Source of the DNA: Antedon mediterranea
Taxonomy: Eukaryota > Animalia > Echinodermata
DNA: 64,000 nucleotides
Assembly: GCF_964355755.1 (NCBI RefSeq)
Contig: NC_092678.1
Coordinates: forward strand, 16,969,881 to 17,033,880
Direction of reading: 5' to 3'
A program made the position numbers and the translations under genes. The first letter of the stretch is position 1. Every line of letters starts with the position of its first letter. Positions 3,495 through 57,829 of the stretch are shown in pieces. The notes beneath the pieces were generated by a model that ran no database searches, was not told the origin of the DNA, and was given only the letters and a program-made list of their open reading frames with translations.

Positions 3495-3648
3495 CGTAAA
3501 ATCTTCAGTGTTTCTTGTCGAATCCGTCGGACACATCAACTCTCGGAATTTTCCCTTTAATATTTCTTTACATGCTGCAAGGGTAACTCTCGGCTCGCAG
3601 ACTTCAATTTTATAAACAAGGCAGCAAATGCGGCGATGATCCGATTTC
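3495..3648 (-). CDS. Cys-rich LRR C-cap/hinge exon resembling GRL101/type-C LGR receptors
   Basis: aaatag|G AAA TCG ... ACG|gtaatg; (L)KSDHRRICCLVYKIEVCEPRVTLAACKEILKGKFRELMCPTDSTRNTEDFT fits the xDxxxxCC-x5/6-C-x-P-x6-C-x-E/D-L pattern from memory; phase matches the preceding LRR exon. Confidence 0.7.
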
Positions 3649-6600
3649 CTATTTTTGGTGATGTACAAATAAAAACATGATATAGTTATTCACTTAGACC
3701 ATGGATCAAGAAAAAATAATAAATTTCCTGAAAAAACTGTAATTTATTCAGATTGGCGTTTATGTTTTATAACTGAAAACATTTGTTTTTTTTCCTTATA
3801 TTTTTAGTAGTAAACTTTATTCAAACTACAAATGACCTATTCATTTTTTATGTTTTTTTGTACAATACACATGTTATCGAAATATCTTGCTATATATCGA
3901 CATAGTAATTCGATAACGATGTCTTACCTGAATATACGTTCGTACTTTTAAGTCGATTAATTTGATTAGATTTAAGTTATCTTATATCTTATGCAAAATT
4001 CATGTTACGAATGAGAGTACGTTTATTGTAAATACATAATATAAAAATAACGCTTAAAAGAGAACGACGTTTCGACTCCATCATGGGGTCATTATCAAGT
4101 CCATTGATAATGACCATATTATGGAGTCGAAACGTCGTTCTCTTTTAAGCGTTATTTTTATATTATGAAATTCATGTTTTTAAGTTAATTTGATTAAAGT
4201 ATGTGACCATCGGATCAATAATCAATATCAATGTAAACTTTACACCGACTTGTAGGTTCATGTTTTTTATATTAATTGTATATTAATATATTGCACACTT
4301 TTGACGATGATCTTAGCTTTAAAAAACCATGTGAATACTTACAATTCGTTTATGTTGATCAAGTTTTCAAAAGTACTATCTTTGTAATTTTTTAATTCGT
4401 TGTCATATATCCAACTGCAAAAAAACATTTTAAAATAAAAATGAGTAAAAGATTCAGTGGTGTTAGGTCATGAAGAAATTTCTCATTCTTATGTCTTTAG
4501 TGGTTTACTAACTTGGACGTAACGCACGGACGCTGTAATACAAAAATAGGTCATCCGAACTGTTGCTTTTGATTGAAATATATACAGTAGTTCATTTTAG
4601 ATATTATATCTAAGCATATATTACTATTATATTTACAATAATTTAAACTAATTTCTTTACAAAACAGACAGATTTAACTACAAGTTATGACTTCATACTG
4701 TAATTTAAATATGATAATATAATATAATATAACATGTATATCTATCCGTGCCACCACCACCACCACCAACCATTAATTAAGGAGATATGAGACTTCAAGT
4801 GGTAAATGGCGATCATTTTGAATTTATGTTAATTAACCCAATTTCCTTTTGGTAAACTTTAGATATGATGTTCATTTGGACCATATCAAGCAAACAAAAC
4901 CAAACAAAATTGTTGTTGCAATTTGTTTTAATGTTGACTTATCTTTACTGGACAAAGATACAATGACCTCATGGCAATGTTTTAAAGACGCCGTTGTGTG
5001 CTCAAATGCGCGTTCATGTCTAAAATATGGCACTGATGTTATGTCATTTTAAAGTAGACTTAATGGTCAAACATCATATTTAAAAAGAAACAATGTAATG
5101 TTTAGTGAGAGAAAGGTTGTAGTCAAGAGGCAGGAAACTGCAGGTGTTGTTTATTGCCTTTAGACATAAACAGGTACCACCGTACGAGAATCGGGTGTCC
5201 AACGGACGAGTACCATGTGTGTATATCGGGAACAAAGCTATTATAAAGTGTACAGATTTTACAGACTATGTCTACGACACATAATCTGTTGTATGACAAG
5301 AATTAATGAATGAGTCCGATAATTGTACAGAGCATCAAACAACTACATGCAGATTATTAAACATTTTGACAAACATAGCGTTTCATACGTATGGTAAGTG
5401 TACACACTGCATAGAAAACATCGAAACGCGACAACAGAAAAAAGACAATAACAGAGACTTGGGACAAGTCTACACAGTATTAACTTACAGTATTGAAAGT
5501 GATGAAGCAAAAGCAGAAAATGCACCTTGATCTATGGTAGTTATAGCGTTATCGTTTAAATACCTACAGATATTGAAAAAAAAAGACACACATTTCAAAC
5601 GGATTGATTTAAAACAATATTAATAATAATACTGTACAACAATACAATAAATAGATAACCACTACATTTGTCTGCTATATTTCACAGTACAGTTATTTGT
5701 ATTCAGCATTTCAGTGGGCGATTTAGACTTCGTTTGACACTCGAAACAATGTCAAATGAAAGGCAAGCTAATATTGCCATGAGGAGGTGCAAATCTGAGG
5801 TAGAGGGGAAAATGTAATGTGTACAAACAGATATCACCTCACCTTTATTTATAAAAGTTGAAAATCAGAAAAAAGGGGAGAATGTAGTGTATTATTTTTT
5901 GTTGTTTTTTTTTTTTCTCTTTTGTGGCGCAAACACCACTTTTATTCACATTCATATTATCTCATATTACATAAAATCGTATTATTTAACTTGTAAATGT
6001 CGTTACAGTTCATAAGTAACATTTTTAAATATATGAATTCTGTATTACTCCTTTTTTCATTAATTTTCGTATATTTTGTTATACACTTGACAGGATCATC
6101 ATTGTCATCTATCCCGTTTTAAAATAGTTCACACATTTTCATTTGTTTGTTTTCATTTTACAACCCGGATTATACAATATATTTATATACATGATAAAAA
6201 AAACAATAATAACTCAGTACCACCAGTAACCCGTATCACTGTAATTCTTTTTCGGTTAATCGTATCAAATTAGAAATTATATTATCATAATCTTATTTCT
6301 TAAAGCTACCCATTTTTCTATACTTGTTTCTTTATTGTTATATGTTTCACATTCAATGTTATATAACATATTGCTTTTAAATGAATTCCATAAAGATTTA
6401 CCCACTGGCTTATTTAGTGCAGATAACATTTTTATTCTATAAATAGTAAATGCTGCAAAAGTGTAAATATAATCTATTAGCTTATCTCCCGTTCCTAGTA
6501 TTAATTGTTTAAATGATATATTATTGTGATTTAAACTTACAAAGATACTAAGCATTTTCCTCCAATATTTCTGAATAAATCTACAACTAAAAAACAAATG

Positions 6601-16475: not shown

Positions 16476-16516
<41 letters not shown>

Positions 16517-37500: not shown

Positions 37501-40500
37501 AGTGCGCTCTTTTAAATGTCATGAACTATGACGCAAAATATGAAATTACGACTGTTATAATTGAACTGGCCATATGATGACGTCACAACATTCGATTTGC
37601 ATAATTTGTACATGAATTCCTATTGTACAATTCAACAGTTTCCAGAAAACGTTTTAATCATGAGTATCACTTTTTATTCTGAGGAGCTATAATACATTTA
37701 AATTTATTGGAATGATGAAAAAAAGTGACCAAAGTCATTCACGCGTTTGAACATGATGAAGTCATCACAATTTTAAAAATGGTAAATCATGCGAAAGATA
37801 ATTGATTGACCTAGACAATATAAACATATGGGGGAAAATGGAATATGGATAAGTGGAGATGCGCTCTATTAAATGTGATGAGCTATACAAAAGAGACACA
37901 AATCCTATATTTTATATTCGAGTGGCCATACGATGACGTCACAATGTCTAGTTAGCCATATTGATACATGATCCGATATCAACAACTCATCTACTTCCAG
38001 AATATGTAAAAAAAAACTTCACCATGTAGTTTAGAAACTATGACTTTTGAAAAAAAGTCATAATTTTGACGATTTTTTTACTTTTTCATAAAAAACGGGC
38101 GCAAATTGTCCAATTCGACGTGCTCGTATGACGTGATTTTAAGTCGAAATTATTTGAAAGCTTGGAAAATTACTAGAAAAGGCTGAAAAAACATAAATCA
38201 CGCAAAAAAAATAACATTTACTAATAATGATAATAATAATTATACGAATAGGGCAAAGGTAAAAAATAAAATGATGTGACAATAAATGTGGTTATCTTAC
38301 AACGAAAATATACTATTTTCAAAAGTATGATAAACAAGAGCAAACACTCTCAGTTCTGTCAATGATGTCAAAACATCAAACACATTTGCTGTTAATGTAG
38401 TTATTTGGTTATTGTACAAGTACCTGAAAACCGTGAAAAAATTCAATAAATAAGTATAGTATATATACAGTACCAAAGAATAGTACGATAAAAATGATCT
38501 ATTTTATTAATTTAGAAATACTTTCCATATCATGATTTCTGGATGTAGATGTGTTCTGCTATATTTTTACGTTTGATATAATATGATAGAGGTTCCGACG
38601 TTCTGTGGTATATTTATTATTGTTTTATTTGTATGATCCCTGTAAACTTCATCTTAATTTCAAATATAATAATATCAATAAAGTAATATTGTTTACTTAA
38701 GCGTGATTCCCACTAGAACGCAACGCAACGTAGCGACGTGTCGACGCAAACTGCTGTATTGCGTAATCACAAATGGGAACCGACGACGCTACAATGCTGC
38801 AAAGCCGCAGGTTTGATTTCACGCAGGCGAGGGAAAACACAATTATCGGAAGGGCATTTTCTTACGCTGCGTAGGTTGCGTTACGTTGCGTCGCTAGAAG
38901 TTAGAAGAGTGCCAGTTATTCAGCACTGAAGAAAACAAAATAAGAAAAAATGTAAACACATGTTACCAGGTTTTTTTAAAACAATTATAAAGCTAAGTGT
39001 GTTAATTAATGAGATGTAAGCACATTTTAGCATGAGGAAGTGAAAATATGGAGGGAGAGAAAACATAAAGTGTAGACACAGATATCACCTCACAAGCAAT
39101 CTATTGCTGACCCAGTGTGAAGGCCGAAATCAAGAGTTGTTCCTGCTCCCCAATTATTGTGGTCCCTTTATTTATAAAACTTGAAAAGCAGAAAAAAGAG
39201 GAGGAGGAGGTGTATGTTTGTTTGTTGCCAGATGCCTATAAAGCTGGTTCAGAGTTTAAGTTATGTTTATCTTACGGACGGATAACGCTAATAATGTACG
39301 TACCACAACATTAGGTAACCGATACGCCCCCATTATGATACGTGCGAATAAAGAAAAAGTGCTATTCCACTGTACGTAGGGATAGCTACCCGATGCCTCT
39401 CATAATAATATTATTTTTTATTCAATAACATTTAATAATAATGATAATAATAATTTACTTTAAAACAAACGAATACAAGTAGGCCTCATTACACACAATA
39501 CAACTACAAACATGAGCTTGTGTTAAAAGAAAGGTTTAGGGATCAATCATAATCAAACAAAAACGGGCATATTATATTATTTTAGTTTTGGATGAATATT
39601 CTGTCTTTGCAAAGAGTAAAAAATGAAATGATGTGACAATAAGTGTGGTTATCTTACAACGAAAATATATTATTTTCAAAAGTATGATAAACAATAGAAA
39701 GCACTCACAGCCCTGTCAATGATGTCAAACCATCAAACACGTTTTCTGATATTGTAGTTATTTTGTTACTTTCCAACCATCTGAAAATTGTGAAAAAATG
39801 CATTAAATAAGTAGCCTATATAAATACAGTACCAAATGATAATACGAAAAAAAAAAAATTATTTTTTAAATTTGTATATACAAAAAAATATAACAACAAA
39901 TATCTTATTGTGCAAACAGAGGCCAAAAAAAGCTTATGTCTATTAGGCGTGTCACTCCAGCAGTGAAAACATTACAGGGTAGGCCTATATACAAGGACAT
40001 AAAAATGTTTGTTTAATGTTACTTTAGCTCGTATTATCATTAGTTGCATGTTTTAGCTGTTTTTCTTTAACTGCTTTTACATGATATAACTATGTTTTAT
40101 CTAGATTTACTGTAAATATGTTGTAATTTCTTTAATATCTACGATACAATACAACCGTTAAATGACGATGATCCATGTATTCTGCTATATTTTCATTTTT
40201 CATTATGGCCGCCGATATTGCTACAGTAACTGAATTAAATAGTCTTGAGTTCGCATAAACAATGTCAAAATAGAAAAAATCAAAAAGAGCAAAACGAAAG
40301 ATATTACATTTGATCGTATTACACATGAAACAGACATATTCCGTAGAAGTATTAATTCCTACAATAAAATAATTGTTTTTATGAGGCATAGCGTTAAACT
40401 GACGTTTTCATGAGAGGAAGATATAAAATATTTGTTCCTCGTGCACAATAAGCTTATTACAACACTATTACACTAAAGCATAAAGTTACACTTAACTGTG

Positions 40501-43500
40501 CCTTAACACCGTTTAATAGTTCAACCGATACAACATTCTGACTTGTCCAAATTTCTTTTTAAAAAAATCTGACAAATATAAACATGAAGAAATAAAAAGC
40601 AATGTCATTAATATACATCAGGCTTAAGAATAATGACATCAATTTTCGATAATCATAAGGACGAGTTCTCGAATGATTCTCTCATTTGTGCCGATGGAAT
40701 TGATATTTCCTAAGTTTACCTAACTACGGAGGAATAGATGCCTCAAATAATAACGTTTTCATGAGAGGAAGATATATAGCATTTGTTCCCCGTCAACACT
40801 ATTTCAAATCCCATGAATCGAAACAATATGTCGAGTGTGCCTATTCCTTCTTGTTCTTATTCCTCTTGAGAGGAAGATATATAACATTTGTTCCGCGTGC
40901 AAAATAAGCTTATAACACTATTGTAGATTATACGTGAATCGAAACAATTATGTCGAGTGTGCCGATTCCTTCTTGTTTTACTGTGGACAACCGCATAGAG
41001 AAACTTTAACATTAACGCCATGCGTCTGGATTGTCTGTGATTTTAAACGATTGTCAATGCTATCTCGACATATGACAATTATTTCTATTTGGTAATACAG
41101 AATCTCAAATGTATCACATGTGGTTCTTGTATCATTAGGTTAAGAATAAACATTTAAAATAATTATATAATTTCTCATTTAATAAAACATACCAGTTATA
41201 CAACAAACTACGTACAGGAGCTCGAGCTTGTGTTAAATTAGTACATATTTTTTATCATTTATATTAAGAATACATTAATCATAATGTTTAATGATGCTGT
41301 ATTATCGAATTTTAATGTTACTGGAGAAATCGAGATAGAATACCGATAATCAGGTGTGTTAGACCAGAATACGTTACTCCTGCTTAAAATGGAGGTCTTT
41401 GCTTTCACCACGTTCTGAAATGTGCCTGTAAGATTATGTTAGGCAAAAACAATACCGTGTATACCTAATAGCGGCCTGGTGAGACCTATGTATTGCCTTC
41501 GCTAAATCCTTTCTTAAACTTGTTCCCACTTATACCTTCTAGAGGAATGTTATCCATAGATATAACCCTAATATACTGCTGATTGGATTCGTCATTTTAT
41601 AATTGTAACACAATGTGTCATAAGAACTGTTCGTTATACCATGGTAGTATGTGGTGCAATTAATTAAAGAATTATGTGATTTGTAAATATTTTACACAAA
41701 GTGCAACACAGTGTGACGTATTGTCTGCTACAATATCTAATGATTACACATTTTTAATAATTATGTAGTTTCTCATTTAATAAAACATACCAGTTATAAT
41801 AACAAATTACCGTATTAAACGTACAAATCAAAGTATAAAAACAATAAGTATATACAGTACCAACGGAAATTACGATAAAAAAGTATCTATTTTATTAATT
41901 TCGAAATACAAAGAAAAAATAACAACAACATATCTATATTGTGAGGCCAAAAAGGCTTATGTCCAATTAGGCGTGTCAGTCTGACAATGAAACAATTACA
42001 AGGTATAATTGATATAATACTAATTGTATGTTACTTTATCTCGTATTATCATTATTTGCATGTTTTAGCTGTTTTTCATTAACTGTCTTTGCATGATTAT
42101 AACAATGTTTTATCTAGATTGACTGTAATCATGTTGTACTTTCCATATCATATGATTTCTGGATGTAGATCAATATCTACAACACAATACAAACGTTAAA
42201 TGACGATGATCCATGTATTCTGCTATATTTTTACTTTTCATTATGGCAGCCGACGGTGCTACAGTGACTGAATTAAATAGTCTTGTTCGTAAACAATGCC
42301 AAAATAAAAAAACTCGAAGAGAGCAAAAAGAAAGATATTACGCTTGAACGTATCACACATTAAACATACATATTCCGTAGAAGTATTAATTCATAAAATA
42401 AAATAATTGTTTTTGGAGGCATAGAGTTAAACTTACGTTTTCATGAGAGGAGGATAAGATAATATTGGTTCCTCGTGCAAAATAAGCTTATTACAACACT
42501 ATTGCAGATTATAACGTGAATCGGCGGTGATTGTACAGAGGCGTGTCTATTTTTGTTTTCGTATCTATAATTTTGGCTTTCAAAAATGGCAGCCCAAAGC
42601 AATCGCTACCCCTGGATCCGACCCGTCAGACTATTTTGATATACAATGATAGAGGTTCAGACGTTCTGTGGTACATTTAAATTGTATTATTTGTATTCCG
42701 TCTTTAAACTTCATCTTAATTTCAAATAGAATAACATCAATAAAGTAATATTGTTTACTTAGAAGTGTGCCAGTTATTCAGCACTGAAGAAAACAAAATC
42801 AGAAAAAAAATTTAACACATGCGACCACATTTTTTTAAACATTATTAAGGCTAAGTGTGTTAATTATTGAGATGTAAAGCACATAGGCTGATTTTAGCAT
42901 GAGGAAGTGCAGACTAGGCGAGAGGTGTTCGGTTTGTTTACAAATCTATACCCACTATTTCTGATTGGTCGCGAGCTTTCAATTGCCATAGTTGCTTTCT
43001 GGACGCACCAAAAGCGTTCGATCGAGTCAAATCTTATTTAAAGTTTTAGTTGAAAGAGGTGTGCCTATCTTTGTAGTTAGGATCTTACGACACTGGTATG
43101 ATAATCAAGAATTTGTTGTTAGATGGGGACATTGTGTCCCTTTACCTTTTTTCTGTTATTAACGGTGTGCGCCAAGGGGGTGTAATGTCTCCACTGCTTT
43201 ACAATGTAGCCTATTATATTGACGATCTTTATGTACAACTTAGAGAGTCCAATCATGGGTGTACTATTGGTGATAACAAAGTTAATTGTCTCAGTTACGC
43301 TGATGACATGCTTCTCATGGCTCCTTTTTCTATTGGAGTACTGAATCTCATTAATGTTTTTGAACTTTATGCTACGAATCGAGATATTGTGTACGGTACT
43401 ATACAATCCAAGTGTATGTTTTTATGTGCTCGTGTACGTAAGTTACAAGGTTGACCTAGTGTTAAGCTAAACCACACTGACCTTGAATTTGTTGACTGTA

Positions 43501-46500
43501 TAACATACTTGGGTCATATGATTTGTAACTCTCTGAATGTTGATAATGATATTAAGAAACAGTATCGAGCTCTGTGTATCAAAGCTAATGCATTATACAG
43601 GACATTCTACAAATGTTCCGTTGAAGTTAAATGTCAGTTATTTAAAATGTTTTGCGTTAATGTAGGCCAATACTATATGACTCTATGGAGAAAATTCCGT
43701 GAAGGTACTGTAAACTAATTTAGAGTTTTCTTTAATAACGGGTTGCGTAAGCTACTGAAAATTCTTAGTTATAGCATTATGTTTTTTAACGAATAACGTT
43801 CCCTCATTCTATAATTTGATGGAACGCTATACATTATAGTTTTAAGAGCATAATTCATGACAGTTGCAATAGCCTGATTCAAACCAACGTCATTCCACAA
43901 TCCAACCTACATCAGCGTTGGTACAAATTGGTATTTTTTAGGATATTGTAAGTTGATTTGTGGAAGTTGCTTATTTAATTTCCTGGTTAAATTGTTTCTA
44001 TTTTTGTTTTTTGTATGATTTGTATATGGATGTACTATCCGAAATAAAGAAAATGAATGAATGAATGAATAGTGTACCGTCATTTTAAAAGTGATATTAT
44101 TGGCCTAATACAACGTCATGGTATTTAGAAACAGTTAAACCTACCCTTAAATGCATAATTTCACAATTAACCAGATTTACTTACAATTGTAAAGCTTGTT
44201 GTTACAAGTAAGGAAAAATGAGAATAAACACTTACAGTGTAACCAATGACGTCAAACCAACAAATTCATTTCCAGACAATGTAGTAATGCCGTTAGAGCT
44301 TAAATCCCTTCAAAATAAAAACATGAATACTTGGTAAATAACAGTTCACGAGTTGAGGTTTCCTTCTTCGGGGAAAAATTGTTACAGTTTGGTGTGTATG
44401 TCAGCGGACAAAATTGTGACCGTAAAATAATGTATCTGCATTGTACTGTTAGTGTGTATTAATGTGTCAGTGAAAATTAAAGAGGGTCGATAATGGTGCA
44501 AACATTAAAATATTAAAACTAAAATAGAAAGTTTATCAATTGAGTACGTAGAACTAAAGATCCGAAGCCTAGTTGGTTGGAACTTGTTCCGCCAGAGATG
44601 GTTCCTGATCAAGTTCAAACTATCAAACACGTCACAGGAATTGTGGACAAATGTGGAAAACGCGTCAAACTTCGAAGGAAAAAATTCAAACCTCCAATGC
44701 CATCTGTTATTTTTGGTAATGCGCAATCACTCAAAACAAGTGAAATGGCTGCAAATGTATTCGAATACAGGAACAGTTGCCTTATGGCGATCACTGAAAC
44801 TTGGCTAATTGAATCTTTTCGGATAATGAATCAAAAAATTGTTCTTGTTATCTGGAATTATTAACAGTTGCTCTTCGTTCCTTTTACTTGCTAAGGGAAT
44901 TCTAGCAGGTTCTAGTCATCATTATCTATATGCAGACTTCAAAGTAGCTTGCGCTAAAGTCGCTGAGGTAGATATAGGCACATAAGCTGCAAATCTCCAG
45001 ATTCAATAAAGCTGTTAGCTTACTATGTGATCTCCACAAAGGATCCCATAAAGAGCTTTCAAAGGTAATTCCACACCTTCATCAATATGTAAACGTTGCT
45101 ACTAGAGAAGGCACTATATACTTGATATGTGCTATGGAAATGTTAAAAATGCTTATACAGCAAAGAGATGTCCAAGCATTGGGCGGTGAGATCACGAAAT
45201 GATACAACATGATCCCAAGCTATAATTCACGAACGTAGGAATCCTCAAAATGAATATGATACGCACATAGCTTAGTGCCTTTAATTATGATATTCATTAG
45301 GCCTACATTGGCCTGGGTTTACCCACTGTGAACTGTAGTGCTTTTTTTTTTCCTTATCAACCTATTCACGGGTATTAAAACGTATAAATCTAAAATTCCA
45401 ACACAGTATGACTCTATGATGGAGTAAATTCAGTGAAGGTAGGCCTACTGTGAACTCATTCAGAGTTTGCTTTAATAACGGGTTGCGTAAGCTACTGAAA
45501 TTTTCTAGTTATAATAGTGCAAGCATGATAATTATTTGTAACGAATAACGTTCCCTCATTCTATGAATATTGGAGGAACTCTATACATAGTTTTAAGAAC
45601 AGAATTCATGACAGTTGCAATAGCCTGATTCAAACCATATTTAACGTCCTAACACAATCCAACCTACTGTACAGTACATCAGCGTTGGTACAAATTGGTA
45701 TTTTTTAGGATATTGTAAGTTGATTTGTGGAAGTTGCTTATTTAATTTCCTAGTTAAATTGTTTCTATTTTTGTATGATTTGTATATGGATGTACTATCC
45801 GAAAATAAATGGGTGAATAGTGTACCGTAATTTTACAAGTTATATTATTGGCTAATACAACGTAATGGTATTTAGAAACAGTTAAACCTACACTTAAATG
45901 CATAATTTCACAATTAACCAGATTTACTTGCAATTGTATAAAGCTTTTAAATTGTTACAAGTAAGGAAAAAATGAGAATAAACACTTACAGTGTAACCAA
46001 TGACGTCAAACCAACAAATGTATTTTCATACAATGTAGTAATGCCGTTTCTGCTTAAATAACAGTTCACGAGTTAAGGTTTTCTTCTTCGGGGAAAATTG
46101 TTACAGTTTGGTATATATGTCAGCGGACAAAATTGTGACCGTAAAATAATTTATCTGCATTGTACTGTTAGTGTGTATTACGTGTCAGTGAAAATTAAAG
46201 AGGGTCGATAATGGTGCAAACATTAAAATATTAAAATTAAAATACAAAGTTTATCAATTGAGTACATAGAACTAAAGATCCGAAGCCTAGTTGGTTGTAA
46301 CTTGTTCCGCCAGAGATGGTTCCTGATCAAGTTAAAACTATCAAACACGTCACAGGAAGCGTGGACAAATGTGGAAAACGCGTCAAACTTCGAAGGAAAA
46401 AATTCAAACCTCCAATGCCATCTGTTATTTTTGGTAATGCGCACTCACTCAAAACAAGTGAAATGGCTGCAAATGTATTCGAATACAGGGACAGTTGCCT

Positions 46501-49500
46501 TATGGCGATCACTGAAACTTGGCTAATTGAATCTTTTCGGATCATGGATCAACAAATTGTTCTTGTCATCAGGAATTATTAACAGTTGCTCTTCGTACGT
46601 CACTTTTACTTCCTAAGGGAATTCTAGCAGGTTCTAGTCATCATTATCTATATGCAGACTTCAAAGTAGCTTGCGCTAAAGTCGCTGAGGTAGATATAGG
46701 CACATAAGCTGCAAATCTCCAGATTCAATAAAGCTGTTACTATGTGATCTCCACAAAGGATCGCATAAAGAGCTTTCAAAGGTAATTCCACACCTTCATC
46801 AATATGTAAACGTTGCTACTAGAGAAGGCACTATATACTTGATATGTGCTATGGAAATGTTAAAAATGCTTATACAGCAAAGAGATGTCCAAGCATTGGG
46901 CGGTCAGATCACGAAATGATACAACATGATCCCAAGCTATAATTCACGAACGTAGGAATCCTCAAAATGAATATGATACGCACATAGCTTAGTGCCTTTA
47001 ATTATGATATTCATTAGGTCTACATTAGGCCTGGGTTAGCCCACTGTGCAACTGTAGTGCTGTTTTTTTTTTTGTTCTTTAGTTCGATTCTTACAGGATA
47101 GTATTGTTTTATTTATCTAATCTATAGAAGGTTCAAAATTTTGTTTAGGGATTAATGTTAGATGGTGTGAGACTAAACGAGTTGTAACAGTAATGAAATT
47201 GAAGATGAGTACCACTTTCTGTTAATGTGTTAATACAACTTAAATTTATCGTTTGATTTATTTTGCAAAATACACTAAATTAGGAAACAACAGATTTTCT
47301 GTTGCATCCGCTTTAATAATAATTTGTTCACGGTCAGACCACCACCATAACGCTTTGACAAAATAAACATTTTAACCTTTCTACGTATTGATGATATAGT
47401 TTATAATTATTAAAATAGGCCTATATGGTAAGATATAACCACGTTACCCTAGCGTCATGGTATTTAGACTAAACCTACACTTAAACGTATAATAATCACA
47501 ATTAACATGATTTACTTACAATTGTAAAGCTTTTAAATTTTTACCAGTAAGGAAAAAATGAAAATAAACACTTACAGTGTAACCAATGACGTCAAACCAA
47601 CAAATTCATTTCTAGACAATGTAGTAATGCCGTTACTGCCTAAATCCCTTCAAAATAAAAACATGAATACTTGGTAAAATAACAGTTCACGAGTTGAGGT
47701 TTCCTTCTTCGGGGAAAAATTGTTACAGTTTGGTGTGTATGTCAGCGGACAAAATTGTGACCGTAAAATAATTTATTTGCATTGTACTGTTAGTGTGTAT
47801 TACGTGTCAGTGAAAATTAAAGAGTGTCGATAATGGTGCAAACATTAAAATATTAAAATTAAAATACAAAGTTTATCAATTGAGTACGTAGAACTAAAGA
47901 TCCGAAGCCCAGTTGGTTGGAACTTGTTCCGCCAGAGATGGTTCCTGATCAAGTTCAAACTATCAAACACGTCGCAGGAAGCGTGGACAAATGTAGAAAA
48001 CGCGTCAAAAAACTTCAAAGGAACAATTTAAAACCTCCAATGCCATCTGTTATTTTTGGTAACGCGCACTCACTCAAAACAAGTGAAATGGCTGCAAATG
48101 TATTCGAATACAGGGACAGTTGCCTTATGGCGATCACTGAAACTTGGCTAATTGAATCTTTTCGGATCATGGATCAACAAATTGTTCTTGTTATCTGGAA
48201 TTATTAACAGTTGCTCTTCGTCCCTTTTACTTGCTAAGGGAATTCTAGCAGGTTCTAGTCATCATTATCTATATGCAGACTTCAAAGTAGCTTGCGCTAA
48301 AGTCGCTGAGGTAGATATAGGCACATAAGCTGCAAATCTCCAGATTCAATAAAGCTGTTACCAGGGAGATGGAGTAACATCATAGTATGTTCTTTTGATC
48401 AGTCTACTTTTCCGACAGGAAGTAAAATAGATAAGACTTAATCCCCGATAAACAGTTCCTCATCAAGTAAACAATTTTCCCTGACGTAATCAATGACACG
48501 CGCATGCGCAGAAAAGTCAAAGTTGCTTCGCTTCGCTTGAATAACTCTGGCCTACGTCACACATCGTCAAGGTGTTTCAGAAAGCCAGATGATACAATCG
48601 CGACACACAATGACAACTGACGACTTCTATACCGATGTACGTAGACTTTTCCGATTTAGATTTCGATGATAGCGATTTAGAAGATGTTGATCTAAAATGA
48701 AAATGTGCCAATGTATTGCCCATGTGGGGAAAGTTCTGACGATCAAATGATCGCTTGTGAAGGCTGTTACTATGTAATCTCCACAAAGGATCCCATAAAG
48801 AGCTTTCAAAGGTAATTCCACACCTTCATAAATATGTAAACGTTGCTACTAGAGAAGGCACTATATACTTGATATGTGCTATGGAAATGTTAAAAATGCT
48901 TATACAGCAAAGAGATGTCCAAGCATTGGGCGGTCAGATCACGAAATGATACAACATGATCCCAAGCTATAATTCACGAACGTAGGAATCCTCAAAATGA
49001 ATATGATACGCACATAGCTTAGTGCCTTTAATTATGATATTCATTAGGCCTACATTAGGCCTGGGTTAACACACTGTGCAATTGTAGTGCTGTTTTTTTT
49101 GTTCTTCAGTTCGATTCTTACAGGAAAGTATTGTTTTATTTATTTAATCTATAGAAGGTTCAAAATTTTGTTTAGGGATTAATGTTAGATGGTGTGAGAT
49201 AAAACGAGTTGTAACAGTAATGAAATTGAAGATGAGTACCACTTTCTGTTAATGTGTTAATACAACTTAAATTTATCGTTTTATTTATTTTGCAAAATAC
49301 ACTAAATTAGGAAACAACAGATTTTCTGTTGCATCCGCTTTAATAATAATTTGTTCACGGTCATACCACCACCATAACGCTTTGACAAAATAAACATTTT
49401 AACCTTTCCACGTATTGATGATATAGTTTATAATTATTGAAATAGGCCTATATGGTAAGATATAACCACGTTACCCTAGCATCATGGTATTTAGACTAAA

Positions 49501-52500
49501 CCTACACTTAAACGTATAATAATCACAATTAACATGATTTACTTACAATTGTAGGCCAAAAGCTTTTAAATTTTTACCAGTAAGAAAAAAATGAGAATAA
49601 ACACTTACAGTGTAACCAATGACGTCAAACCACCAAATGTATTTTCATGCAATGTAGTAATGTCGTTACTGTTTAACTTCCTTCAAAATAAAAACATGAA
49701 CACTTGGTAAATAACAGTTCACGAGTTGAGGTTTTCTTCTTAGGGGAAAATAGTTACAGTTTGGTGTGTATGTCAGTGGATGAAATAGTGACCGTAAAAT
49801 AATGTATCTGTATTGTACTGTTAGTGTATATTACATGTCAGTGAAGATTAAAGAGGGTCGATAACGGTACAAACGTTAATATGTTATTAAAATTAAAATA
49901 CAAAGTTTATCGATAGAGTACGTAGAACTAAAGATCCGAAGCCTAGTTGGTCGGAACCTGTTCCGGCAGAAATGGTTCCTGATCAAGTTAAAACTAATGA
50001 ACACGTCACAGGAAGAAGCGTTGAAAAATGTGAAAGACGCGTCAAACTTCGAAGGAAAAAATTCAACTCTCCAATGCCATCTGTTATTTTTGGTAATGCT
50101 CACTCACTTAAAAACAAGTTTAGTGAATTGACTGCAAATGGCAGTATTCGAATACAGGGACAGTTGCCTTATGGCACTCGCTGAAACTTGGCTAAATGAA
50201 TCTGTTTCGGATCATGGATCAAACATTTTTCTTGTAATCTGGAATTATTAACAATTGCTCTTCGTTCCTTTTACTCGCCAAGGGAATTCTAGCAGGTTCT
50301 ATAGTCATCATTATCTATAGGCCTATACACCCGAAAGAATACTTCAAAGTAACTTGTGCTAAAGTCGCTGAGATAGACACATAAGCTACAAATCTCCAGA
50401 TTCAATAAAGCTTGGTGATTTCCACAAACGATCCCATAAAGAGCTTACAAAGGTAATTCCACACCTTTATCAATATGTAAACGTTGCTACGAGAGAAGGC
50501 ACTATATACTTGATAATTATGTGCTATGGATATGGTAAAAATGCTTATACAGCCAAGAGATGTCCAGGCATTTGGCGGTCAGATCACGAATTGATACAAC
50601 ATGATCCAAAGCTATAATTCACGAACATAGGAAGCTTCAAAATGAATATGATACGCACATTATCTTAGTTTCTTTAATTATGATATTCATTAGACCTACA
50701 TTGGCATGGGTTTACCCACTGTGAACTGTAGTGCTGCTTTTTTTTATTCTTCAGTTCGATTCTTCCTGTATAGTATTGTTTTATTTATTTATTCTATAGA
50801 AGGTTCATAACCATACGAACGTTAGATTATTGTAAAAACAAAATGTTCGATAAACTAAATCATTGGATTTTTGTCTAGATTTGGTAGTTTTTTTAGTTTT
50901 ACGAATTAATTTTTCCTTTTGTTAAGTGGGATTGATCGGCTGAATGGGTAATAATTTGTATGATTTAGCTTTGTAATTTATTTGTTATAGGTATAGTCTC
51001 TGGTCTATGTAGCAAGGGCAAATATTCTACAATTCAGACTCCAATAAATGAAATTAAGCAAATTTTGTATAGGAATTAATGTTAGATGGTGTGAGATAAA
51101 ACGAGAAAATAGACTATGTCAAGTTTGTAACAGGAATGAAATTGAAGATGAGTACCACTTTCTGTTTTAATATGTTAATACAACTTAAATTTATCGTTTT
51201 CTTTTGCAAAATACACTAAATTAGGAAAAACATATTTTATGTTGCATCCGCTTTAATAATAAAAATAAATAAAATATATTTTTATTGTCCACCACCACCA
51301 TAACGCTTTGACAAGCAAACACTTAATCCTTTCCACGTATTAATGCTATAGTGTACTAATATTACAATAATTATATTGTAAGACATCAGCACGTCACCCT
51401 GAACGTCATGGTACTTAGAAACAGTTAAACCTACCCTAAATGTATAATCACAATTAGCATGATTTACTGACAATTGTACACAGCAACCTCAAATCAAATC
51501 AAATCAAGTCTATATTCGTTTCATATATAAAAACGTAGCAAGTAAGTACTTGTCAACTGGTTTAACCAAAAAATTAACATTTATTTATTAAATAAAAAAT
51601 TTACATTGTTTTCCTCGAAAGAAAAATATGGTAAAACATTCACAATTACATCATACATAGAAAAAATTTACAATTTAAAAACATTAATAACATCCATATA
51701 TATATATATTGCATGTGCGCTATTATCATCTAACAATCTTTGAGTTAAAATATGCGTTGAATTTGGTACAAAAGACAGTCGGTGTCTTGACGCATCAGCT
51801 CTAAGAGCCTTTACATTTTTATAAGTAATTTTTCTGTATTGTATTACGTGTATTACTAGATGGTCGATAACAATAAGAACGTTAAATTATTATTTAAAAA
51901 ACTATGTAAAGTTTATTGACAGATTGTAGATCATCGTTTTTAACTAGAATTGGTAGTTTTTTTAATTTTTACGAATTCATTTTTCCTTTGGTTAAGATGT
52001 TAATAATTTATATGATTTAGCTTTGTAATTTATTTGTTATAGGTAAAGTCTCTGCACCTTGTTCAAATGTAATCTGATGTTTGCCTAACAATAATTTTAG
52101 AATTACAGAAAATCAATGATGTAATGATTTATTTGCTGTCTAGCACGTGAAATTATTCTTCCTTCTCTGTGCCTAAGGCAGAATGTGAAGGAAAACATTA
52201 GTATACATTTCCCAAAAAGTGACATAAAAGTATAAAGAATACTCGATAAAAATACTTTAAAAATAATCTCATATAGCGCCGCTACATACTCGCACATTAT
52301 TTGTTTAATAATTTAAGCAGATTCTGAAAGATATGAAGCGTTTTTTTCTATGTCAAAATACTACGTATGTAAGGATCAACGACTGTAACAATAACATCGA
52401 TGGATTTAAGAACAACCCTAAATACCTGTAATATAATAAATTACAAACAGTAATACAAATTAAAACTTAAAATCATCAGCTAACATACCCTTTTATCCGC

Positions 52501-54146
52501 TTTAATAATAAAGAATAAATCAAAGAAGTTGCTTTTGTTCACAGTCATACCACCATAACGCTTCACTTTGAATGTACCGTAATTTTACAAGTAATATTTA
52601 ACAGTTAAACCTACCGTTAAATGTATAATTTCAGAAATAACATGATTTATTTGAATTTTTATAAGTAAGAAAACAAAATGAGAATAAACACTTACAGTAT
52701 AACCAATGATGTCAAACCACCAAATGCATTTTCATACAATGTAGTAATGCCGTTACTGCTTAAATCCCTTCAAAATAAAAACAGTTGGTAAATAACAGTT
52801 CACGAGTTGAGGTTTTCTTCTTTGGGAAAAATATTTACAGTTTATGTCAGTAGATGAAATAGTGACCCTAAAATAATGTATCTGAAATGTACTATTGTTG
52901 TGTATTACTGTACGTGTTAGTGAAAATTAAAGAGAGTCGATAACGTTACAACAAACGTTAAAATATTATTCAAATTATAAATACAAAATATATCGATTTA
53001 GTACATACTGTAGTACGTCAGGAATAGGTTGTTCGTTTATATAATTACTGATATAAAGACGGAGAGATAACATTTTAATACATCTTAAAGGCAATTGAAA
53101 AATAATCAATCCTTTACTATAAGCCGAAACGTAGCAAGAGTATGTAACTTATTTGTTATAGAGAGAAAAATAGTGCATGTTTAGACACAAACCAGCACAG
53201 CTGATGTAATCTGAGGGTAGCCTACAATAATTAAAGTACACGTATAACTAAACGATAAAGAAAGAAATGTATACATAAATCAATGTCAAATAACTAGCTC
53301 GATGATATCAAACGGCGCCTCTACACACTCACACATTGATTCAATCCAAAGAGTTTACACTGACAAGAAAAGTCAGCATTTTTTTAAAGTTATGAATAAT
53401 CAACTACCAAAATAATATTAAAATTGTTTAAAATACCGTTCGTTATCTAATTTACGGACGTAGGAAGTCTAAAAATCAATATATATGTACATATTTGTTA
53501 TTTAGTGCCTTTGATTCTAACATCCGTTACTCTATTGTGTTAACCCACTGTGTAATAATAGTGTCTGTTTCTGTGGTTAATTGCGCGGTGCAATGCTGTT
53601 TTTTCAATTGAGGATTTTTCAATTCTGTTCTCGCACGATTGTATTATTCTATTTTATGAAAAGATGAGGGGCATTTTGGAAACACATTTTTTATACAATT
53701 CGAATGAGTGTACGATGTATTTAAACCAATTTACAGAACGTACGTACCGAAAAAAAAACACCATGGACTGAAATCGTTATTTTGTGAGGATGGTGCTAAT
53801 TGGAATGATTCGTCTACGATAGTCCAGTACTTTTACAATTAACTAATATTAATTTTCCGTTGTATCATTTTCATTTCTATATTTTGTAATAAAAATAATA
53901 TAATCATAATAACAATTTTTTTTTTAATATAAGCTTTAGAATTAACGTAACTGCGATCAACGTTTCAATGTTACTACGCCTGTTTTATGAAAGCTTACAG
54001 TTTGCACAAAACAGGTTCTTTGATGATACTTACAAGAATGTTATTGGTTGATGATTATTGTAGTTCCTGACGGATTCTGCTGTTGCATTAATATATTTCC
54101 GACAGCTTAAGTAGTTAAATATGCAATCGCATCCAGTTGGACATAT
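3495..54146 (-). CDS. Multi-exon LRR receptor-like gene (LRRNT, 10 intact single-LRR exons, GRL101/LGR-like hinge); 5' and 3' ends not resolved
   Basis: Exons with AG/GT boundaries splice in frame: 54146-54034, 52767-52696, 49680-49609, 47647-47576, 44307-44236, 39780-39709, 36400-36326, 32281-32210, 30196-30122, 5563-5489, 4414-4343, 3648-3495. Every LRR junction is phase 2 and splits the Leu codon (CT|N or TT|G). Confidence 0.85.
4035..4167. mobile_element. Penelope-like element end as an inverted (palindromic) pair
   Basis: Arms of about 62 bp: CATAATATAAAAATAACGCTTAAAAGAGAACGACGTTTCGAC ... GTCGAAACGTCGTTCTCTTTTAAGCGTTATTTTTATATTATG; CGAAACGTCG is typical of PLE pseudo-LTRs. Confidence 0.65.
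4343..4414 (-). CDS. LRR exon type D (72 bp) WIYDNELKNYKDSTFENLININEL
   Basis: tttgcag|T TGG ... GAA TT|gtaagt; 24-aa LRR pattern. Confidence 0.85.
5110..5903. repeat. Displaced copy of the type-C LRR exon unit
   Basis: Near-identical to about 29750-30540 and 35628-36690; cut at about 5904 by the LINE poly-A end. Confidence 0.9.
5489..5563 (-). CDS. LRR exon type C (75 bp) YLNDNAITTIDQGAFSAFASSLSIL
   Basis: tctgtag|G TAT ... ATA CT|gtaagt. Confidence 0.88.
8099..9962. mobile_element. Non-autonomous hAT element (1864 bp)
   Basis: TIRs CAGTGGTGGCGCCAG / CTGGCGCCACCCCTG; 8-bp TSD ATTCAACG at 8091-8098 and 9963-9970; removal restores the RT frame YNNVE-CVTVNNGW. Confidence 0.95.
8171..9110. 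repeat. Three tandem units of about 310-320 bp inside the hAT element
   Basis: GGGTACTTTTTGTCGGGGAATATAA recurs near 8179, 8502 and 8813 with collinear downstream sequence. Confidence 0.92.
10758..11308. repeat. 56-bp minisatellite, about 10 copies, downstream of the transposase stop
   Basis: Unit CTACATGGTCATAAACTTTATGACTACAGTATATGGTTGAGCTATTGTTATATAAA; period 56 (10923 to 10979). Confidence 0.95.
13890..14040 (-). mobile_element. Short LINE 3'-end fragment in a transposase intron
   Basis: TTTTCTCTTTT..CCACTTTTATTCA resembles the Tx1 3' end at 5910-5950. Confidence 0.4.
16477..16515. repeat. (TAG)n microsatellite
   Basis: About 13 TAG units. Confidence 0.95.
18392..19489. mobile_element. 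Foldback/MITE element of 1098 bp with arms of about 530 bp, Merlin- or MULE-like ends
   Basis: Termini GGCGCTAGTTCCG ... CGGAACTAGCGCC; 8-bp TSD GAACTTCG at 18384-18391 and 19490-19497; spacer about 18921-18964. Confidence 0.93.
19655..19720 (-). promoter_or_regulatory. Putative promoter of the transposase gene
   Basis: CpG-rich; ETS-like CCGGAAGT and three CGCGACCGATTTC repeats just upstream of a candidate ATG at 19647. Confidence 0.35.
20821..21503. repeat. Direct repeat A (about 680 bp), copy at about 22238-22915; CACTG start and AAATTACTG subrepeats suggest CMC/EnSpm origin
   Basis: Near-identical from GGCCTACACTGTTAAAAAAATTC to GGACACTTAACA. Confidence 0.85.
21502..22128. repeat. Direct repeat B (about 625 bp), copy at about 24758-25387
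   Basis: Near-identical from CAATGAGAATTATATCGTCGG to GGTTTTCATGGT. Confidence 0.9.
21813..21850 (-). ncRNA. Minimal hammerhead ribozyme motif, Penelope type
   Basis: CA-CTGATGA-A-GGGC-TAGTTTT-GCCC-GAAA-GCTC-TG: intact core, stem II and palindromic AGCT stem III; stem I is short. Confidence 0.55.
22852..23078 (+). pseudogene. Merlin (IS1595/ISXO2-like) transposase C-terminal fragment
   Basis: SNKWKVY...HLTVNHSKNVVDPITGVHTQNIESYWNREKLKLK matches the SDxWxAY / VNHS..FVDP.TG.HTQ.IES.W signature. Confidence 0.85.
25071..25108 (-). ncRNA. Second copy of the minimal hammerhead motif
   Basis: CTGATGAAGGGCTAGTTTTTCCCGAAAGCTCTG; one stem-II mismatch compared with the first copy. Confidence 0.45.
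26011..27052 (+). mobile_element. Degenerate LINE RT fragment, RTE-X-like
   Basis: IPGWNE..GKPKSG, RPIALASVVSKVLE, QFAFK, FLDASKAYD, GVRQGG; stops and deletions present. Confidence 0.88.
30122..30196 (-). CDS. LRR exon type C (75 bp) YLPYKNITTIDQGAFSAFASSISIL
   Basis: tttgcag|G TAT ... ATA CT|gtatgt; the conserved Asn is replaced by Lys. Confidence 0.75.
31026..32065 (-). mobile_element. Non-autonomous Helitron/Helentron-like element
   Basis: Minus-strand end has hairpin AACTCGTC-CATA-GACGAGTT then CAAATCTAG|TT; TGACGTCA-rich body; no TIRs. Confidence 0.6.
32210..32281 (-). CDS. LRR exon type B (72 bp) SLSSNQITTLPENVFDGLKSLTIL
   Basis: ttttcag|A TCG ... ATA CT|gtgagt. Confidence 0.92.
32434..32481 (-). 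pseudogene. Truncated type-B LRR pseudo-exon WLANNQITTLPANVF
   Basis: Acceptor intact; the 3' third and the donor are deleted, and read-through hits TAA. Confidence 0.85.
35990..36302 (+). mobile_element. tRNA-derived SINE with a Deu/Nin-like core and L2-like tail
   Basis: A box TGGCGCAGTGTG, B box GGTTCGAATCC, core CTCTCTCCACCCAGGTGTATAAATGGGTACC, tail GTAAAGCGCC..GGCGCTATATAAAT(TAT)n; absent from the paralogous units, with AAGT duplicated at the flanks. Confidence 0.9.
36326..36400 (-). CDS. LRR exon type C (75 bp) YLYGNAITTIDQGAFSAFASSLSIL
   Basis: tttgcag|G TAC ... ATA CT|gtaagt. Confidence 0.88.
37173..38210 (-). mobile_element. Duplicate of the Helitron-like element with its terminal hairpin and CTAG deleted
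   Basis: Collinear with 31045-32065; begins AACAAGACGAGTTAGG. Confidence 0.6.
38352..38423 (-). pseudogene. Type-B LRR exon YLYNNQITTLTANVFDVLTSLTEL with a mutated donor
   Basis: Open 72-bp frame and intact acceptor, but the donor reads gagagt where the paralogs have gtgagt. Confidence 0.85.
38700..38900. mobile_element. Small MITE, PIF/Harbinger-like, right end eroded
   Basis: Insertion relative to paralogs (TTACT^TAGAAG); AGCGTGATTCCCACTAG start; inverted ACGCAACG/CGTTGCGT repeats. Confidence 0.6.
39709..39780 (-). CDS. LRR exon type B (72 bp) WLESNKITTISENVFDGLTSLTGL
   Basis: ttttcag|A TGG ... GGG CT|gtgagt. Confidence 0.92.
42990..44070 (+). mobile_element. RTE-X-like LINE 3' portion with a (GAAT)n tail; shorter 3' copy at about 45465-45820
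   Basis: FLDA.KAFD, NGVRQGGVMSPLLYNV, LSYADDMLL, YLGH; AATAAA followed by GAATGAATGAAT. Confidence 0.88.
44236..44307 (-). CDS. LRR exon type A (72 bp) DLSSNGITTLSGNEFVGLTSLVTL
   Basis: ttttgaag|G GAT ... ACA CT|gtaagt. Confidence 0.9.
44570..45230 (+). mobile_element. Rex1/Babar LINE APE-endonuclease remnant; further copies at about 46290-46950, 47910-48980 and 49950-50630
   Basis: LRRKKFKPPMPSVIFGNAHSLKNK, DSCLMAITETWL, RPFYLPREF, HQYVNVATRE, LDMCYGN, GRSDH across frames. Confidence 0.85.
45990..46059 (-). pseudogene. Type-A LRR pseudo-exon LSRNGITTLYENTFVGLTSLVTL lacking its acceptor
   Basis: A deletion of about 34 bp between two TAAAT microhomologies removes the pyrimidine tract and AG. 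Confidence 0.85.
47576..47647 (-). CDS. LRR exon type A (72 bp) DLGSNGITTLSRNEFVGLTSLVTL
   Basis: ttttgaag|G GAT ... ACA CT|gtaagt. Confidence 0.9.
48362..48762 (+). mobile_element. 401-bp insertion with an 8-bp TSD and a PHD-finger fragment
   Basis: TSD GCTGTTAC at 48354-48361 and 48763-48770; starts CAGGG; ends in ENVPMYCPCGESSDDQMIACE; empty site at 46733-46740. Confidence 0.85.
49609..49680 (-). CDS. LRR exon type A (72 bp) KLNSNDITTLHENTFGGLTSLVTL
   Basis: ttttgaag|G AAG ... ACA CT|gtaagt. Confidence 0.9.
51490..51890 (-). mobile_element. LINE 3' end (Rex-Babar-like) with an (ATTTG)n tail
   Basis: CAAATCAAATCAAATCAA tail; minus strand reads ALRADASRHRLSFVPNS, resembling the R...SF.P C-terminal motif. 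Confidence 0.5.
52696..52767 (-). CDS. LRR exon type A (72 bp) DLSSNGITTLYENAFGGLTSLVIL
   Basis: ttttgaag|G GAT ... ATA CT|gtaagt. Confidence 0.9.
54034..54146 (-). CDS. LRRNT cap exon ICPTGCDCIFNYLSCRKYINATAESVRNYNNHQPITF(L)
   Basis: aaacag|ATA TGT ... TTC TT|gtaagt; CPxxCxC-x6-C cap; its phase-2 end joins the first LRR exon. Confidence 0.9.
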
Positions 54147-56478: not shown

Positions 56479-56561
56479 TTAAAGGGCCTTCAAACTGGGG
56501 TATAACCTACTAATTAAAAGGATGGACATTTTCGGGATGCACAATATAAAAACTAGACTAC

Positions 56562-57445: not shown

Positions 57446-57829
57446 AAAGAGAAATGTAGCAACATGAAATTGTTATGCAACAGCAAACACAAGTGACGGA
57501 AACACTAACTTTCCAAAACAAAACTTTTACTGGATTTCATCAGTAGGCCTACACATTATTGCTAAATATGTGGAAGACTTCATTTAAGTACTCGATTAGA
57601 TGAGATTGGGTATTTTTTGTATATACAATTTTCTCATTTCTCATTTACATTACTCTAGACTCACTACAAATAGGACAATCTATTCAACTTTGTTCAGTAT
57701 ACTTTGTTCAATTGCACAATGCAAGCAGCCATCTTCGACATGTGCTCAAAAGTGGGTTGCAAAATAATATCATAAATATACAGTTAACTATACAATTAAC
57801 TGAACAAATTTATAAATTTTATGTATTTA

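What the first reader, a model, noticed from the sequence alone, without database searches (positions are those of the whole stretch)
3495..54146. Hidden cassette-exon LRR receptor locus with VLR-like architecture
Seen: an LRRNT exon, 13 single-repeat exons of 72/75 bp and a Cys hinge exon, all on the minus strand over 50 kb. All LRR exons are phase 2-2, so any subset or copy number stays in frame. They fall into families in the order A-A-A-(A)-A-B-(B)-C-(B)-B-C-C-D (brackets mark dead cassettes), and the A, B and C exons each sit in a kb-scale duplicated unit. Established: one-LRR-per-exon phase-2 structure is normal for LGR genes, and modular LRR cassettes drive lamprey VLR and Ectocarpus ROCO diversity. 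Inference: this is a rapidly expanding and contracting recognition receptor diversified by unequal crossover, conversion and possibly exon skipping, and may be an undescribed invertebrate immune or allorecognition system.
Basis: partly seen in the sequence, partly recalled or inferred. Interest (0 to 1): 0.88.

Follow-up and report, generated by a model that had tools for sequence, protein, structure and literature searches.

The report
Hypervariable LRR receptor from GRL101-like ectodomain
An animal gene builds its leucine-rich-repeat sensor from one-repeat exons that are spliced, copied in tandem and unusually variable at the predicted binding face; it is likely a hormone-receptor (GRL101-like) outer domain that has lost its first membrane helix and likely serves non-self recognition, diversified in the germline rather than assembled somatically like lamprey VLRs.

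Summary
In detail: one LRRNT exon, exactly 13 phase-2-2 LRR exons (10 intact, 3 damaged) in the stated order, and a Cys exon, in kb-scale duplicated units. The Cys exon is best explained as the hinge of GRL101-like (type C LGR) receptors, not a VLR cap. However, the first membrane helix that follows it in 88 of 88 relatives is replaced by a polar tail, and no 7TM or LDLa exon lies in the window. Both gene ends are unresolved. New evidence: (1) concave-face codons change far faster than silent sites (22/42 vs 5/50, p about 1e-5); (2) the A units are recombinant mosaics; (3) one low-depth contig of a probable RNA run joins LRR exons exactly at the predicted splice sites; (4) other individuals and a related organism carry A-exon alleles absent from the window (13 of 25 listed) and lack one that 2 of its 5 copies have. 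Exon skipping, copy-number change, immune function and any somatic step are not shown. It works like brown-algal ROCO shuffling exons and is not a VLR. New variant of a known kind; interest 0.62.

The parts
54034..54169 (-). LRRNT exon (phase 1 acceptor at 54169, alternative acceptor at 54146; phase 2 donor)
   Evidence: weak match to the LRRNT of Acanthaster GRL101-like P0158, E 0.06 among 177 proteins
52696..52767 (-). LRR exon A1, 72 nt, phase 2-2
   Evidence: Pfam LRR_8 E 9e-4; its last 29 nt are identical to the first exon of the spliced X5 contig
49609..49680 (-). LRR exon A2, 72 nt
47576..47647 (-). LRR exon A3, 72 nt
45990..46059 (-). damaged LRR exon A4: acceptor and first bases deleted
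44236..44307 (-). LRR exon A5, 72 nt
39709..39780 (-). LRR exon B1, 72 nt
   Evidence: Pfam LRR_8 E 1e-4
38352..38423 (-). damaged LRR exon B2: donor reads GA; a weak in-frame GT lies 6 nt downstream
36326..36400 (-). LRR exon C1, 75 nt
32420..32481 (-). damaged LRR exon B3: 3' part and donor deleted
32210..32281 (-). LRR exon B4, 72 nt
30122..30196 (-). LRR exon C2, 75 nt; cluster of changes in codons 3-6 that moves the conserved Asn
5489..5563 (-). LRR exon C3, 75 nt, after a 24.6-kb transposon-filled intron
4343..4414 (-). LRR exon D, 72 nt, last repeat; resembles the last repeat before GRL101-like hinges
3495..3648 (-). hinge exon (CC-x7-C-x8-C, then a fifth Cys and a polar tail where TM1 is expected); phase 0 donor
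43667..53007 (.). tandem array of five A units, 1.6-2.0 kb, mosaic
28875..42909 (.). duplicated B-B-C blocks and their flanks
3074..3311 (-). weak candidate next exon (acceptor at 3311, 79 codons; or at 3232, 28 codons with a hydrophobic end); unverified, overlaps a short repeat
   Evidence: raised depth at 3195/3216 in X5 and at 3216 in X1

Best explanation
This is a spliced LRR gene, likely derived from the outer domain of a GRL101-like (type C LGR) receptor, whose one-repeat exons have been tandemly duplicated, recombined and partly inactivated, with diversifying change at the predicted binding face, so that it likely acts as a polymorphic non-self recognition receptor. Steps. (1) Shown: each repeat is a phase 2-2 exon in a duplicated unit, so gain or loss of a unit keeps the frame. 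(2) Shown: the A units are mosaics; unequal crossover or gene conversion is the inferred cause. (3) Shown: damaged copies are knocked out at splice sites, so they are predicted to be skipped without breaking the gene. (4) Shown: excess amino-acid change at concave positions; selection by a changing ligand (microbe, parasite, conspecific cell) is inferred. (5) Shown in one low-depth contig: exons are joined at the predicted borders. (6) Shown: TM1 is missing after the hinge. Inferred: the product is anchored or secreted by a downstream exon not identified here, or keeps a remote 7TM behind a spacer. Diversity is mainly germline, between haplotypes; exon skipping is possible but not shown.
For: Hinge: the last LRR plus hinge scores 21.3 bits on a profile of 66 GRL101-like hinges, and 0 of 2000 shuffles reach it. 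The best blastp hit among 177 stored proteins is Amphiura GRL101-like P0175 (E 1.1e-5). The hinge alone against P0175 is reached by 0 of 1000 shuffles, against four non-GPCR LRR proteins by 84-545 of 1000. Selection: intact exons have 22 nonsynonymous changes on 42 concave sites, vs 5/50 synonymous (p 9e-6), 86/395 intron (p 5e-5) and 12/118 other nonsynonymous (below the intron rate, p 0.005). Per codon: 11/18 vs 9/52, and 10/18 vs 7/52 without C2 (p 8e-4). Alleles in four runs show the same skew, 10/14 vs 5/17 (p 0.03). Recombination: 81 of 210 informative-site pairs are incompatible in the A units. Splicing: X5 record 10 joins the 3' end of an A1-identical exon to a whole A-type exon and then to a third sequence, exactly at the exon borders; the loose ends read as an LRR exon start (17 of 19 nt like C3); no joints were listed for X1, X6 or X7. 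X5 depth in the hinge exon is 26.5 vs 10.5 in the adjacent intron. Repertoires: 13 of 25 listed exon alleles occur in no window copy; the allele at 52732 (2 of 5 window copies) has zero depth in X1, X6 and X7. TM1: mean hydropathy 1.25-2.42 in 88 of 88 relatives with the motif, -1.22 here.
Against: The hinge alone is weak evidence: 77 of 2000 shuffles reach its profile score; it gave no blastp hit at E<=1 and no hit in 1.84 billion representatives, the longer-protein search, PDB or JGI contigs. P0175 was chosen after the fact as the best of 177, and that set is mostly one echinoderm family seeded by P0030. The joined last-LRR-plus-hinge also scores above shuffles on the non-GPCR controls (0-6 of 1000), through its LRR part. 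The splice evidence is one contig at depth 4.77 plus one at 5.17, from a run whose RNA status is the tool's guess and which also covers introns. All nonsynonymous vs synonymous change is not significant (p 0.05-0.10), counts are small, and clustered or converted changes inflate them. Extra A alleles could come from a paralogous locus; no genome is held. Three of 13 exons are damaged and one intact exon has a displaced Asn, which also fits decay. No tissue, ligand or challenge data.
Confidence: 0.58

Rival explanations
1. A full-length GRL101-like GPCR whose LDLa and 7TM exons lie outside the window behind a short spacer; a chemosensory or peptide receptor whose LRR array turns over and adapts to changing cues.
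For: Introns reach 24.6 kb, so both ends can lie outside. The hinge ends in a good phase-0 donor, and the LRRNT acceptor is phase 1. GRL101-like receptors are numerous in echinoderm sequence (660 hits), one has 26 LRR motifs, and GRL101-like transcripts are enriched in sensory tentacles of a sea star and a snail (PMC6267866, PMC13403566; passages read).
Against: In 88 of 88 relatives with the motif, TM1 starts within about 9 residues of the last hinge Cys; here that stretch is polar and the conserved Trp position is a Cys. No 7TM trace in the window (tblastn best E 0.59; profile best E 0.045, on the wrong strand).
Confidence: 0.2
2. A truncated LGR in decay: repeats expand and contract by neutral unequal crossover, and the variation carries no function.
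For: 3 of 13 exons are damaged, TM1 is lost, C2 has a displaced Asn, some alleles in other runs replace the conserved Asn, and the introns are full of transposons.
Against: Scaffold positions change less than introns and concave positions more. All 10 intact exons keep frame and splice sites, and the damage falls on splice sites. Spliced junctions exist. The hinge and the C and A exons are kept in a related organism.
Confidence: 0.1
3. The main diversifier is somatic or post-transcriptional: Dscam-like or crab-VLR2-like combinatorial exon skipping, or cell-specific rearrangement, gives each animal many receptors.
For: All cassettes are frame-neutral. The X5 junctions include exons not found in the window, and an A1-like exon is followed after one more A-type exon by a Tyr-starting exon. 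Alternative splicing of such exons is reported for ROCOs (PMC11378527, passages) and crab VLR2 (PMC10045472, abstract).
Against: The loose-end consensus mixes two contigs (agreement 0.77), so which exon follows which is not resolved, and a different haplotype explains the junctions equally well. There are no flanking donor cassettes without splice sites. No joints were listed in three DNA runs.
Confidence: 0.12

Closest known systems
GRL101-like / type C LGRs of echinoderms (P0175 and P0030 Amphiura filiformis, P0158 Acanthaster planci; class definition in PMC4561518, passages read)
   Same: LRRNT, typical 24-residue LRRs, last repeat and short Cys hinge in register. One LRR per phase-2 exon, as stated for gonadotropin receptor genes (PMC11378527, passage).
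   Different: No TM1 after the hinge and no 7TM or LDLa in the window; recent tandem exon duplication with damaged copies; concave-face diversification.
Brown-algal LRR-ROCO shuffling exons (PMC11378527, passages read; Zambounis 2012 only as cited there)
   Same: 72-nt phase-2 one-repeat exons, positive selection on the concave face, proposed immune role.
   Different: Animal gene with extracellular-type caps and an LGR hinge, not an intracellular ROC-COR GTPase. Alternative splicing is reported there and unresolved here.
Lamprey and hagfish VLRs (PMC13428168, passages read)
   Same: Same LRR sequence class (many of the 53 PDB hits are VLRs or VLR-based designs); variation at the exposed x positions of the LxxLxLxxNxL strand (position assignment recalled).
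   Different: Cassettes here are spliced exons inside a complete repeat array; no VLR-type LRRCT; no sign of somatic assembly.
Crab Eriocheir VLR2 (PMC10045472, abstract only) and amphioxus FrLRR (PMC10199209, passages read)
   Same: Invertebrate LRR receptors with a bacterial-binding role; VLR2 has ten splice isoforms; FrLRR is predicted to be GPI-anchored and to have arisen by exon shuffling.
   Different: Neither is described, in what I read, as LGR-derived or as a tandem array of recently duplicated single-repeat exons.

Membership tests
type C LGR / GRL101-like GPCR | LRR ectodomain with a Cys N-cap | tested here: met
type C LGR / GRL101-like GPCR | short Cys hinge after the last LRR | tested here: met
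   last LRR plus hinge: 0 of 2000 shuffles; hinge alone vs P0175: 0 of 1000; hinge alone on the profile weak, 77 of 2000
type C LGR / GRL101-like GPCR | TM1 directly after the last hinge Cys | tested here: not met
   hydropathy -1.22 vs 1.25-2.42 in 88 of 88 relatives with the motif (121 examined)
type C LGR / GRL101-like GPCR | rhodopsin-type 7TM domain anywhere in the gene | tested here: inconclusive
   none in the window; the gene may run past position 1; no genome held
type C LGR / GRL101-like GPCR | N-terminal LDLa module(s) | tested here: inconclusive
   no LDLa motif or tblastn hit in the window; no convincing signal-peptide exon in 54240-64000
VLR (agnathan) | incomplete germline gene with flanking donor cassettes | tested here: not met
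   all 13 cassettes lie between the LRRNT and the hinge, same strand, with splice sites; the intact ones form one frame
VLR (agnathan) | LRRCT-type C-cap | tested here: not met
   no LRRCT motif on either strand; the Cys exon does not match four non-GPCR LRR proteins above shuffles and has no PDB hit
VLR (agnathan) | somatic assembly by deaminase-dependent gene conversion in lymphocytes | not testable with these tools
   needs single-cell or clonal DNA
VLR (agnathan) | stalk with GPI anchor or single helix (recalled) | tested here: inconclusive
   short Thr/Ser-containing tail and a weak candidate exon at 3232
ROCO-type shuffling LRR exons | 72-nt phase-2 one-repeat exons | tested here: met
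   (C family 75 nt)
ROCO-type shuffling LRR exons | diversifying selection on the concave face | tested here: met
   (counting tests, not codon models)
ROCO-type shuffling LRR exons | alternative splicing of the LRR exons | tested here: inconclusive
   junctions seen, order unresolved
ROCO-type shuffling LRR exons | ROC-COR GTPase domain | not tested
   not searched for directly; none among 20 pieces scanned by Pfam

The most novel reading that the evidence does not exclude
A hormone-receptor ectodomain has been cut loose from its GPCR and turned into a membrane-tethered or secreted hypervariable receptor. Each haplotype carries its own number and set of binding-face cassettes, and exon skipping multiplies them within an animal: an independent, germline-plus-splicing route to a VLR-like repertoire in an invertebrate, for immunity or allorecognition.
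Probability: 0.22. Interest if true: 0.87.

Novelty: new variant of a known kind. Interest (0 to 1): 0.62.

Why it matters
LGRs are known as conserved receptors of hormones and insulin-like peptides. A GRL101-like ectodomain that evolves like an immune receptor, apparently without its first membrane helix, would show how a variable LRR recognition system can arise from an endocrine gene. It would give a concrete, testable invertebrate candidate for non-self recognition and a natural model of the germline stage from which cassette systems such as VLRs might start. The exon layout itself is common; the LGR origin, the strong binding-face signal and the turnover between individuals are what stand out.

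Tried and rejected
No whole genome is held, so paralogues and the gene ends could not be searched. No listed holder was on record as RNA; this blank is not used as evidence. Searches with the hinge exon alone found nothing: longer proteins, 2 candidates and none scored; PDB 0; JGI contigs, 310 pattern matches and none confirmed; 1.84 billion representatives 0; earlier findings by place or sequence 0. Pfam gave only a chance 11-residue match for the hinge and none for the LRRNT exon. The Atlas could not read the window's hinge; a look-up with the homologue P0175 gave only generic LRR leads under 0.9 and no family with this hinge lacking 7TM. The 12-kb read-laying listed only 15 of 174 joints, dominated by repeats, so it says nothing on splicing of the 3' exons. 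X5's lack of cover in 10 of 28 bins is not used as evidence. Summed depth over the A exon relative to the hinge contig was 3.7-4.9 (X1), 5.9-7.7 (X6) and 9.5-10.6 (X7); the tool states that this is no copy number, so it is only a hint of copy-number difference. A direct A-to-C junction (exon skipping) was considered and not claimed, because the loose-end consensus mixes two contigs. Candidate last exons at 3334, 3311 and 3232 could not be confirmed. The spliced protein was not folded, because only unbroken window stretches can be submitted. A motif search of supplement 1 of PMC8286064 found nothing (its alignments are probably images); its two spreadsheets were not read. PMC6408891 (passages) had no LGR content. 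No tRNA genes. The organism was not determined; the echinoderm names of the best hits reflect a search seeded with an Amphiura protein.

Full report
1. Observation. The window is AT-rich (32% GC), with spliceosomal introns and many transposon fragments. No genome is held. A scan for AG-exon-GT units, blastn and tblastn with the first exons, direct reading and a nucleotide profile give exactly 13 LRR exons on the minus strand, between an LRRNT exon (54169-54034) and a Cys exon (3648-3495). Ten LRR exons are intact, 72 or 75 nt, all phase 2-2; with the two flanking exons they give 339 codons without a stop. Three are damaged at splice sites: A4 lost its acceptor, B2 has GA for GT, and B3 lost its 3' end. 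Self-comparison shows five A units of 1.6-2.0 kb and a duplicated B-C block.

2. What the gene is. A profile of the exons hits generic typical LRRs, VLR-based chains among them (53 PDB sequences), which says little about family. A search with the exon alignment gave 57 proteins among 2275 candidates, one of them with a 7TM domain: P0030 of Amphiura. Its hinge-7TM region retrieved 660 proteins; the best 120 were kept, 12 of them named GRL101-like. The last LRR plus the Cys exon scores 21.3 bits on a profile of 66 hinges from these, reached by 0 of 2000 shuffles; the Cys exon alone is weak (77 of 2000). Among 177 stored proteins the best match is the LDLa-LRR-7TM receptor P0175 (E 1.1e-5), with the CC, the next two Cys, the EP and the following L in register. 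The Cys exon alone beats 1000 of 1000 shuffles against P0175, but not against four non-GPCR LRR proteins (84-545 of 1000 reach it). The LRRNT weakly matches P0158 of Acanthaster (E 0.06). So the gene is likely derived from a GRL101-like ectodomain. The sample of relatives is biased to echinoderms, and the organism is not determined.

3. Missing membrane domain. In 88 of 121 relatives the last hinge Cys could be located; in all 88 the next stretch is hydrophobic (1.25-2.42), while here it is polar (-1.22) and ends at a phase-0 donor. No 7TM remnant and no LDLa, CUB or convincing signal-peptide exon lie in the window. Introns reach 24.6 kb, so both ends may lie outside. Because a defining feature failed at its expected place, I do not file the gene as a type C LGR, only as derived from one.

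4. Selection and recombination. Counting minimal changes per family in the intact A, B and C exons (9 exons; D has no paralogue), the exposed x positions of the LRR strand carry 22 nonsynonymous changes on 42 sites, against 5 on 50 synonymous sites (p 9e-6) and 86 on 395 intron columns (p 5e-5). Other nonsynonymous sites (12 on 118) are below the intron rate (p 0.005). All nonsynonymous against synonymous is not significant (p 0.10). Per codon, 11 of 18 concave vs 9 of 52 other positions vary, or 10 of 18 vs 7 of 52 without the clustered C2 exon (both p 8e-4). The assignment of concave positions is recalled, and was fixed before counting. In the A units 81 of 210 pairs of informative sites fail the four-gamete test, which points to conversion or unequal crossover; recurrent mutation can add to this count.

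5. Other individuals. Eight runs from three studies hold part of 2400-6200; four were laid. At 3511 all four differ from the window, so its haplotype is not theirs. X6 and X7 (organism B) keep the hinge, C and A exons, the hinge region at about 95% identity. On exon A1, 25 exon alleles were listed (3 rows of the table not shown): 13 occur in none of the window's five A copies, and 10 fall on 14 concave sites vs 5 on 17 silent sites (p 0.03). One allele absent from the window has 34-66% of the depth in all four runs; the allele at 52732, in 2 of 5 window copies, has none in X1, X6 or X7. The hinge was covered by one contig each in X1, X6 and X7, which favours a single locus but does not exclude diverged paralogues. 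Depth ratios hint at more A copies in X7, but the tool says they are no copy number.

6. Splicing. Only X5 (RNA by the tool's guess, but also covering introns) shows a joint. Record 10 (164 nt, depth 4.77) has 29 nt identical to the end of A1, then a complete A-type exon unlike any in the window, then 60 letters that leave the genomic sequence at the donor site. Record 11 (depth 5.17) leaves at the same place. The loose-end consensus matches the start of exon C3 at 17 of 19 positions and the intron at 8 of 30, then departs from all 11 window exons compared. These joints fall exactly at the predicted exon borders, so a spliced form existed, whether the contig is mRNA or a retrocopy. It is one run at low depth, and the consensus mixes two contigs, so skipping is not shown.

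7. Mechanism. Most likely: frame-neutral cassettes are gained, lost and partly exchanged in the germline; splice-site damage removes copies without breaking the gene; selection keeps the scaffold and varies the binding face. The ligand and tissue are unknown. Non-self recognition is inferred from the selection pattern; chemosensation through a remote 7TM is the main rival, since GRL101-like transcripts are enriched in sensory tentacles (PMC6267866, PMC13403566; passages).

8. Comparison and novelty. Brown-algal ROCOs have the same 72-nt phase-2 exons, concave selection and alternative splicing (PMC11378527, passages). VLRs are assembled somatically from incomplete germline cassettes (PMC13428168, passages), which does not fit here. 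Crab VLR2 (PMC10045472, abstract) and amphioxus FrLRR (PMC10199209, passages) are invertebrate precedents for LRR receptors diversified by splicing or shuffling. Earlier notes of this scan list similar one-repeat exon arrays in other genomes (unchecked), so the layout is common. Nine paper searches listed no report of an LGR-derived hypervariable cassette array; one search returned 0 papers. The library lacks most subscription journals, and unread supplements may bear on this. Verdict: real feature, new variant of a known kind, interest 0.62.

Noticed in passing
window 6277-10236 (-): Non-LTR retrotransposon ORF pieces (Pfam RVT_1, zf-RVT), broken and interrupted by high-copy repeats at about 8100-9960.
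   Followed up: partly
window 11423-15596 (-): Multi-piece ORF set with two strong DUF7869 matches (E 6e-33 and 1e-35), probably an intron-containing DNA transposase gene inside the 24.6-kb intron; no terminal repeats identified.
   Followed up: partly
window 60461-64000: Large foldback structure: arms of about 1.7 kb, 94-99% complementary, running off the window edge.
   Followed up: no
window 18392-19489 and 20017-23670: Two inverted-repeat elements (461-nt arms; nested arms around a 3-kb core with internal 83-nt tandem repeats).
   Followed up: no
window 3994-4167: A 69-nt perfect-arm hairpin element (4030-4172); X1, X6 and X7 have contigs that skip it, so it is a polymorphic insertion in the D-hinge intron.
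   Followed up: partly
window 5519-5871: Contigs of X6 and X7 match the C3 upstream intron and the 5' half of the exon, then diverge inside the exon, at about 2.6 times the depth of the hinge contig: possibly a C-like cassette type that the window lacks.
   Followed up: partly
window 44544-44864, 46301-46582, 47884-48207, 49897-50184 (+): Four A units carry the same decayed ORF on the opposite strand, copied with the unit; it resembles the start of a LINE endonuclease (recalled label; the one copy scanned had no informative Pfam hit).
   Followed up: no
window 26601-27209 and 43077-43454 (+): Further reverse-transcriptase fragments.
   Followed up: no
window 32210-32481: B3 and B4 are only 229 nt apart, a much smaller duplication unit than the others.
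   Followed up: no
window 1195-1683 and 10758-11309: Minisatellites of 83/107-nt and 56-nt period.
   Followed up: no
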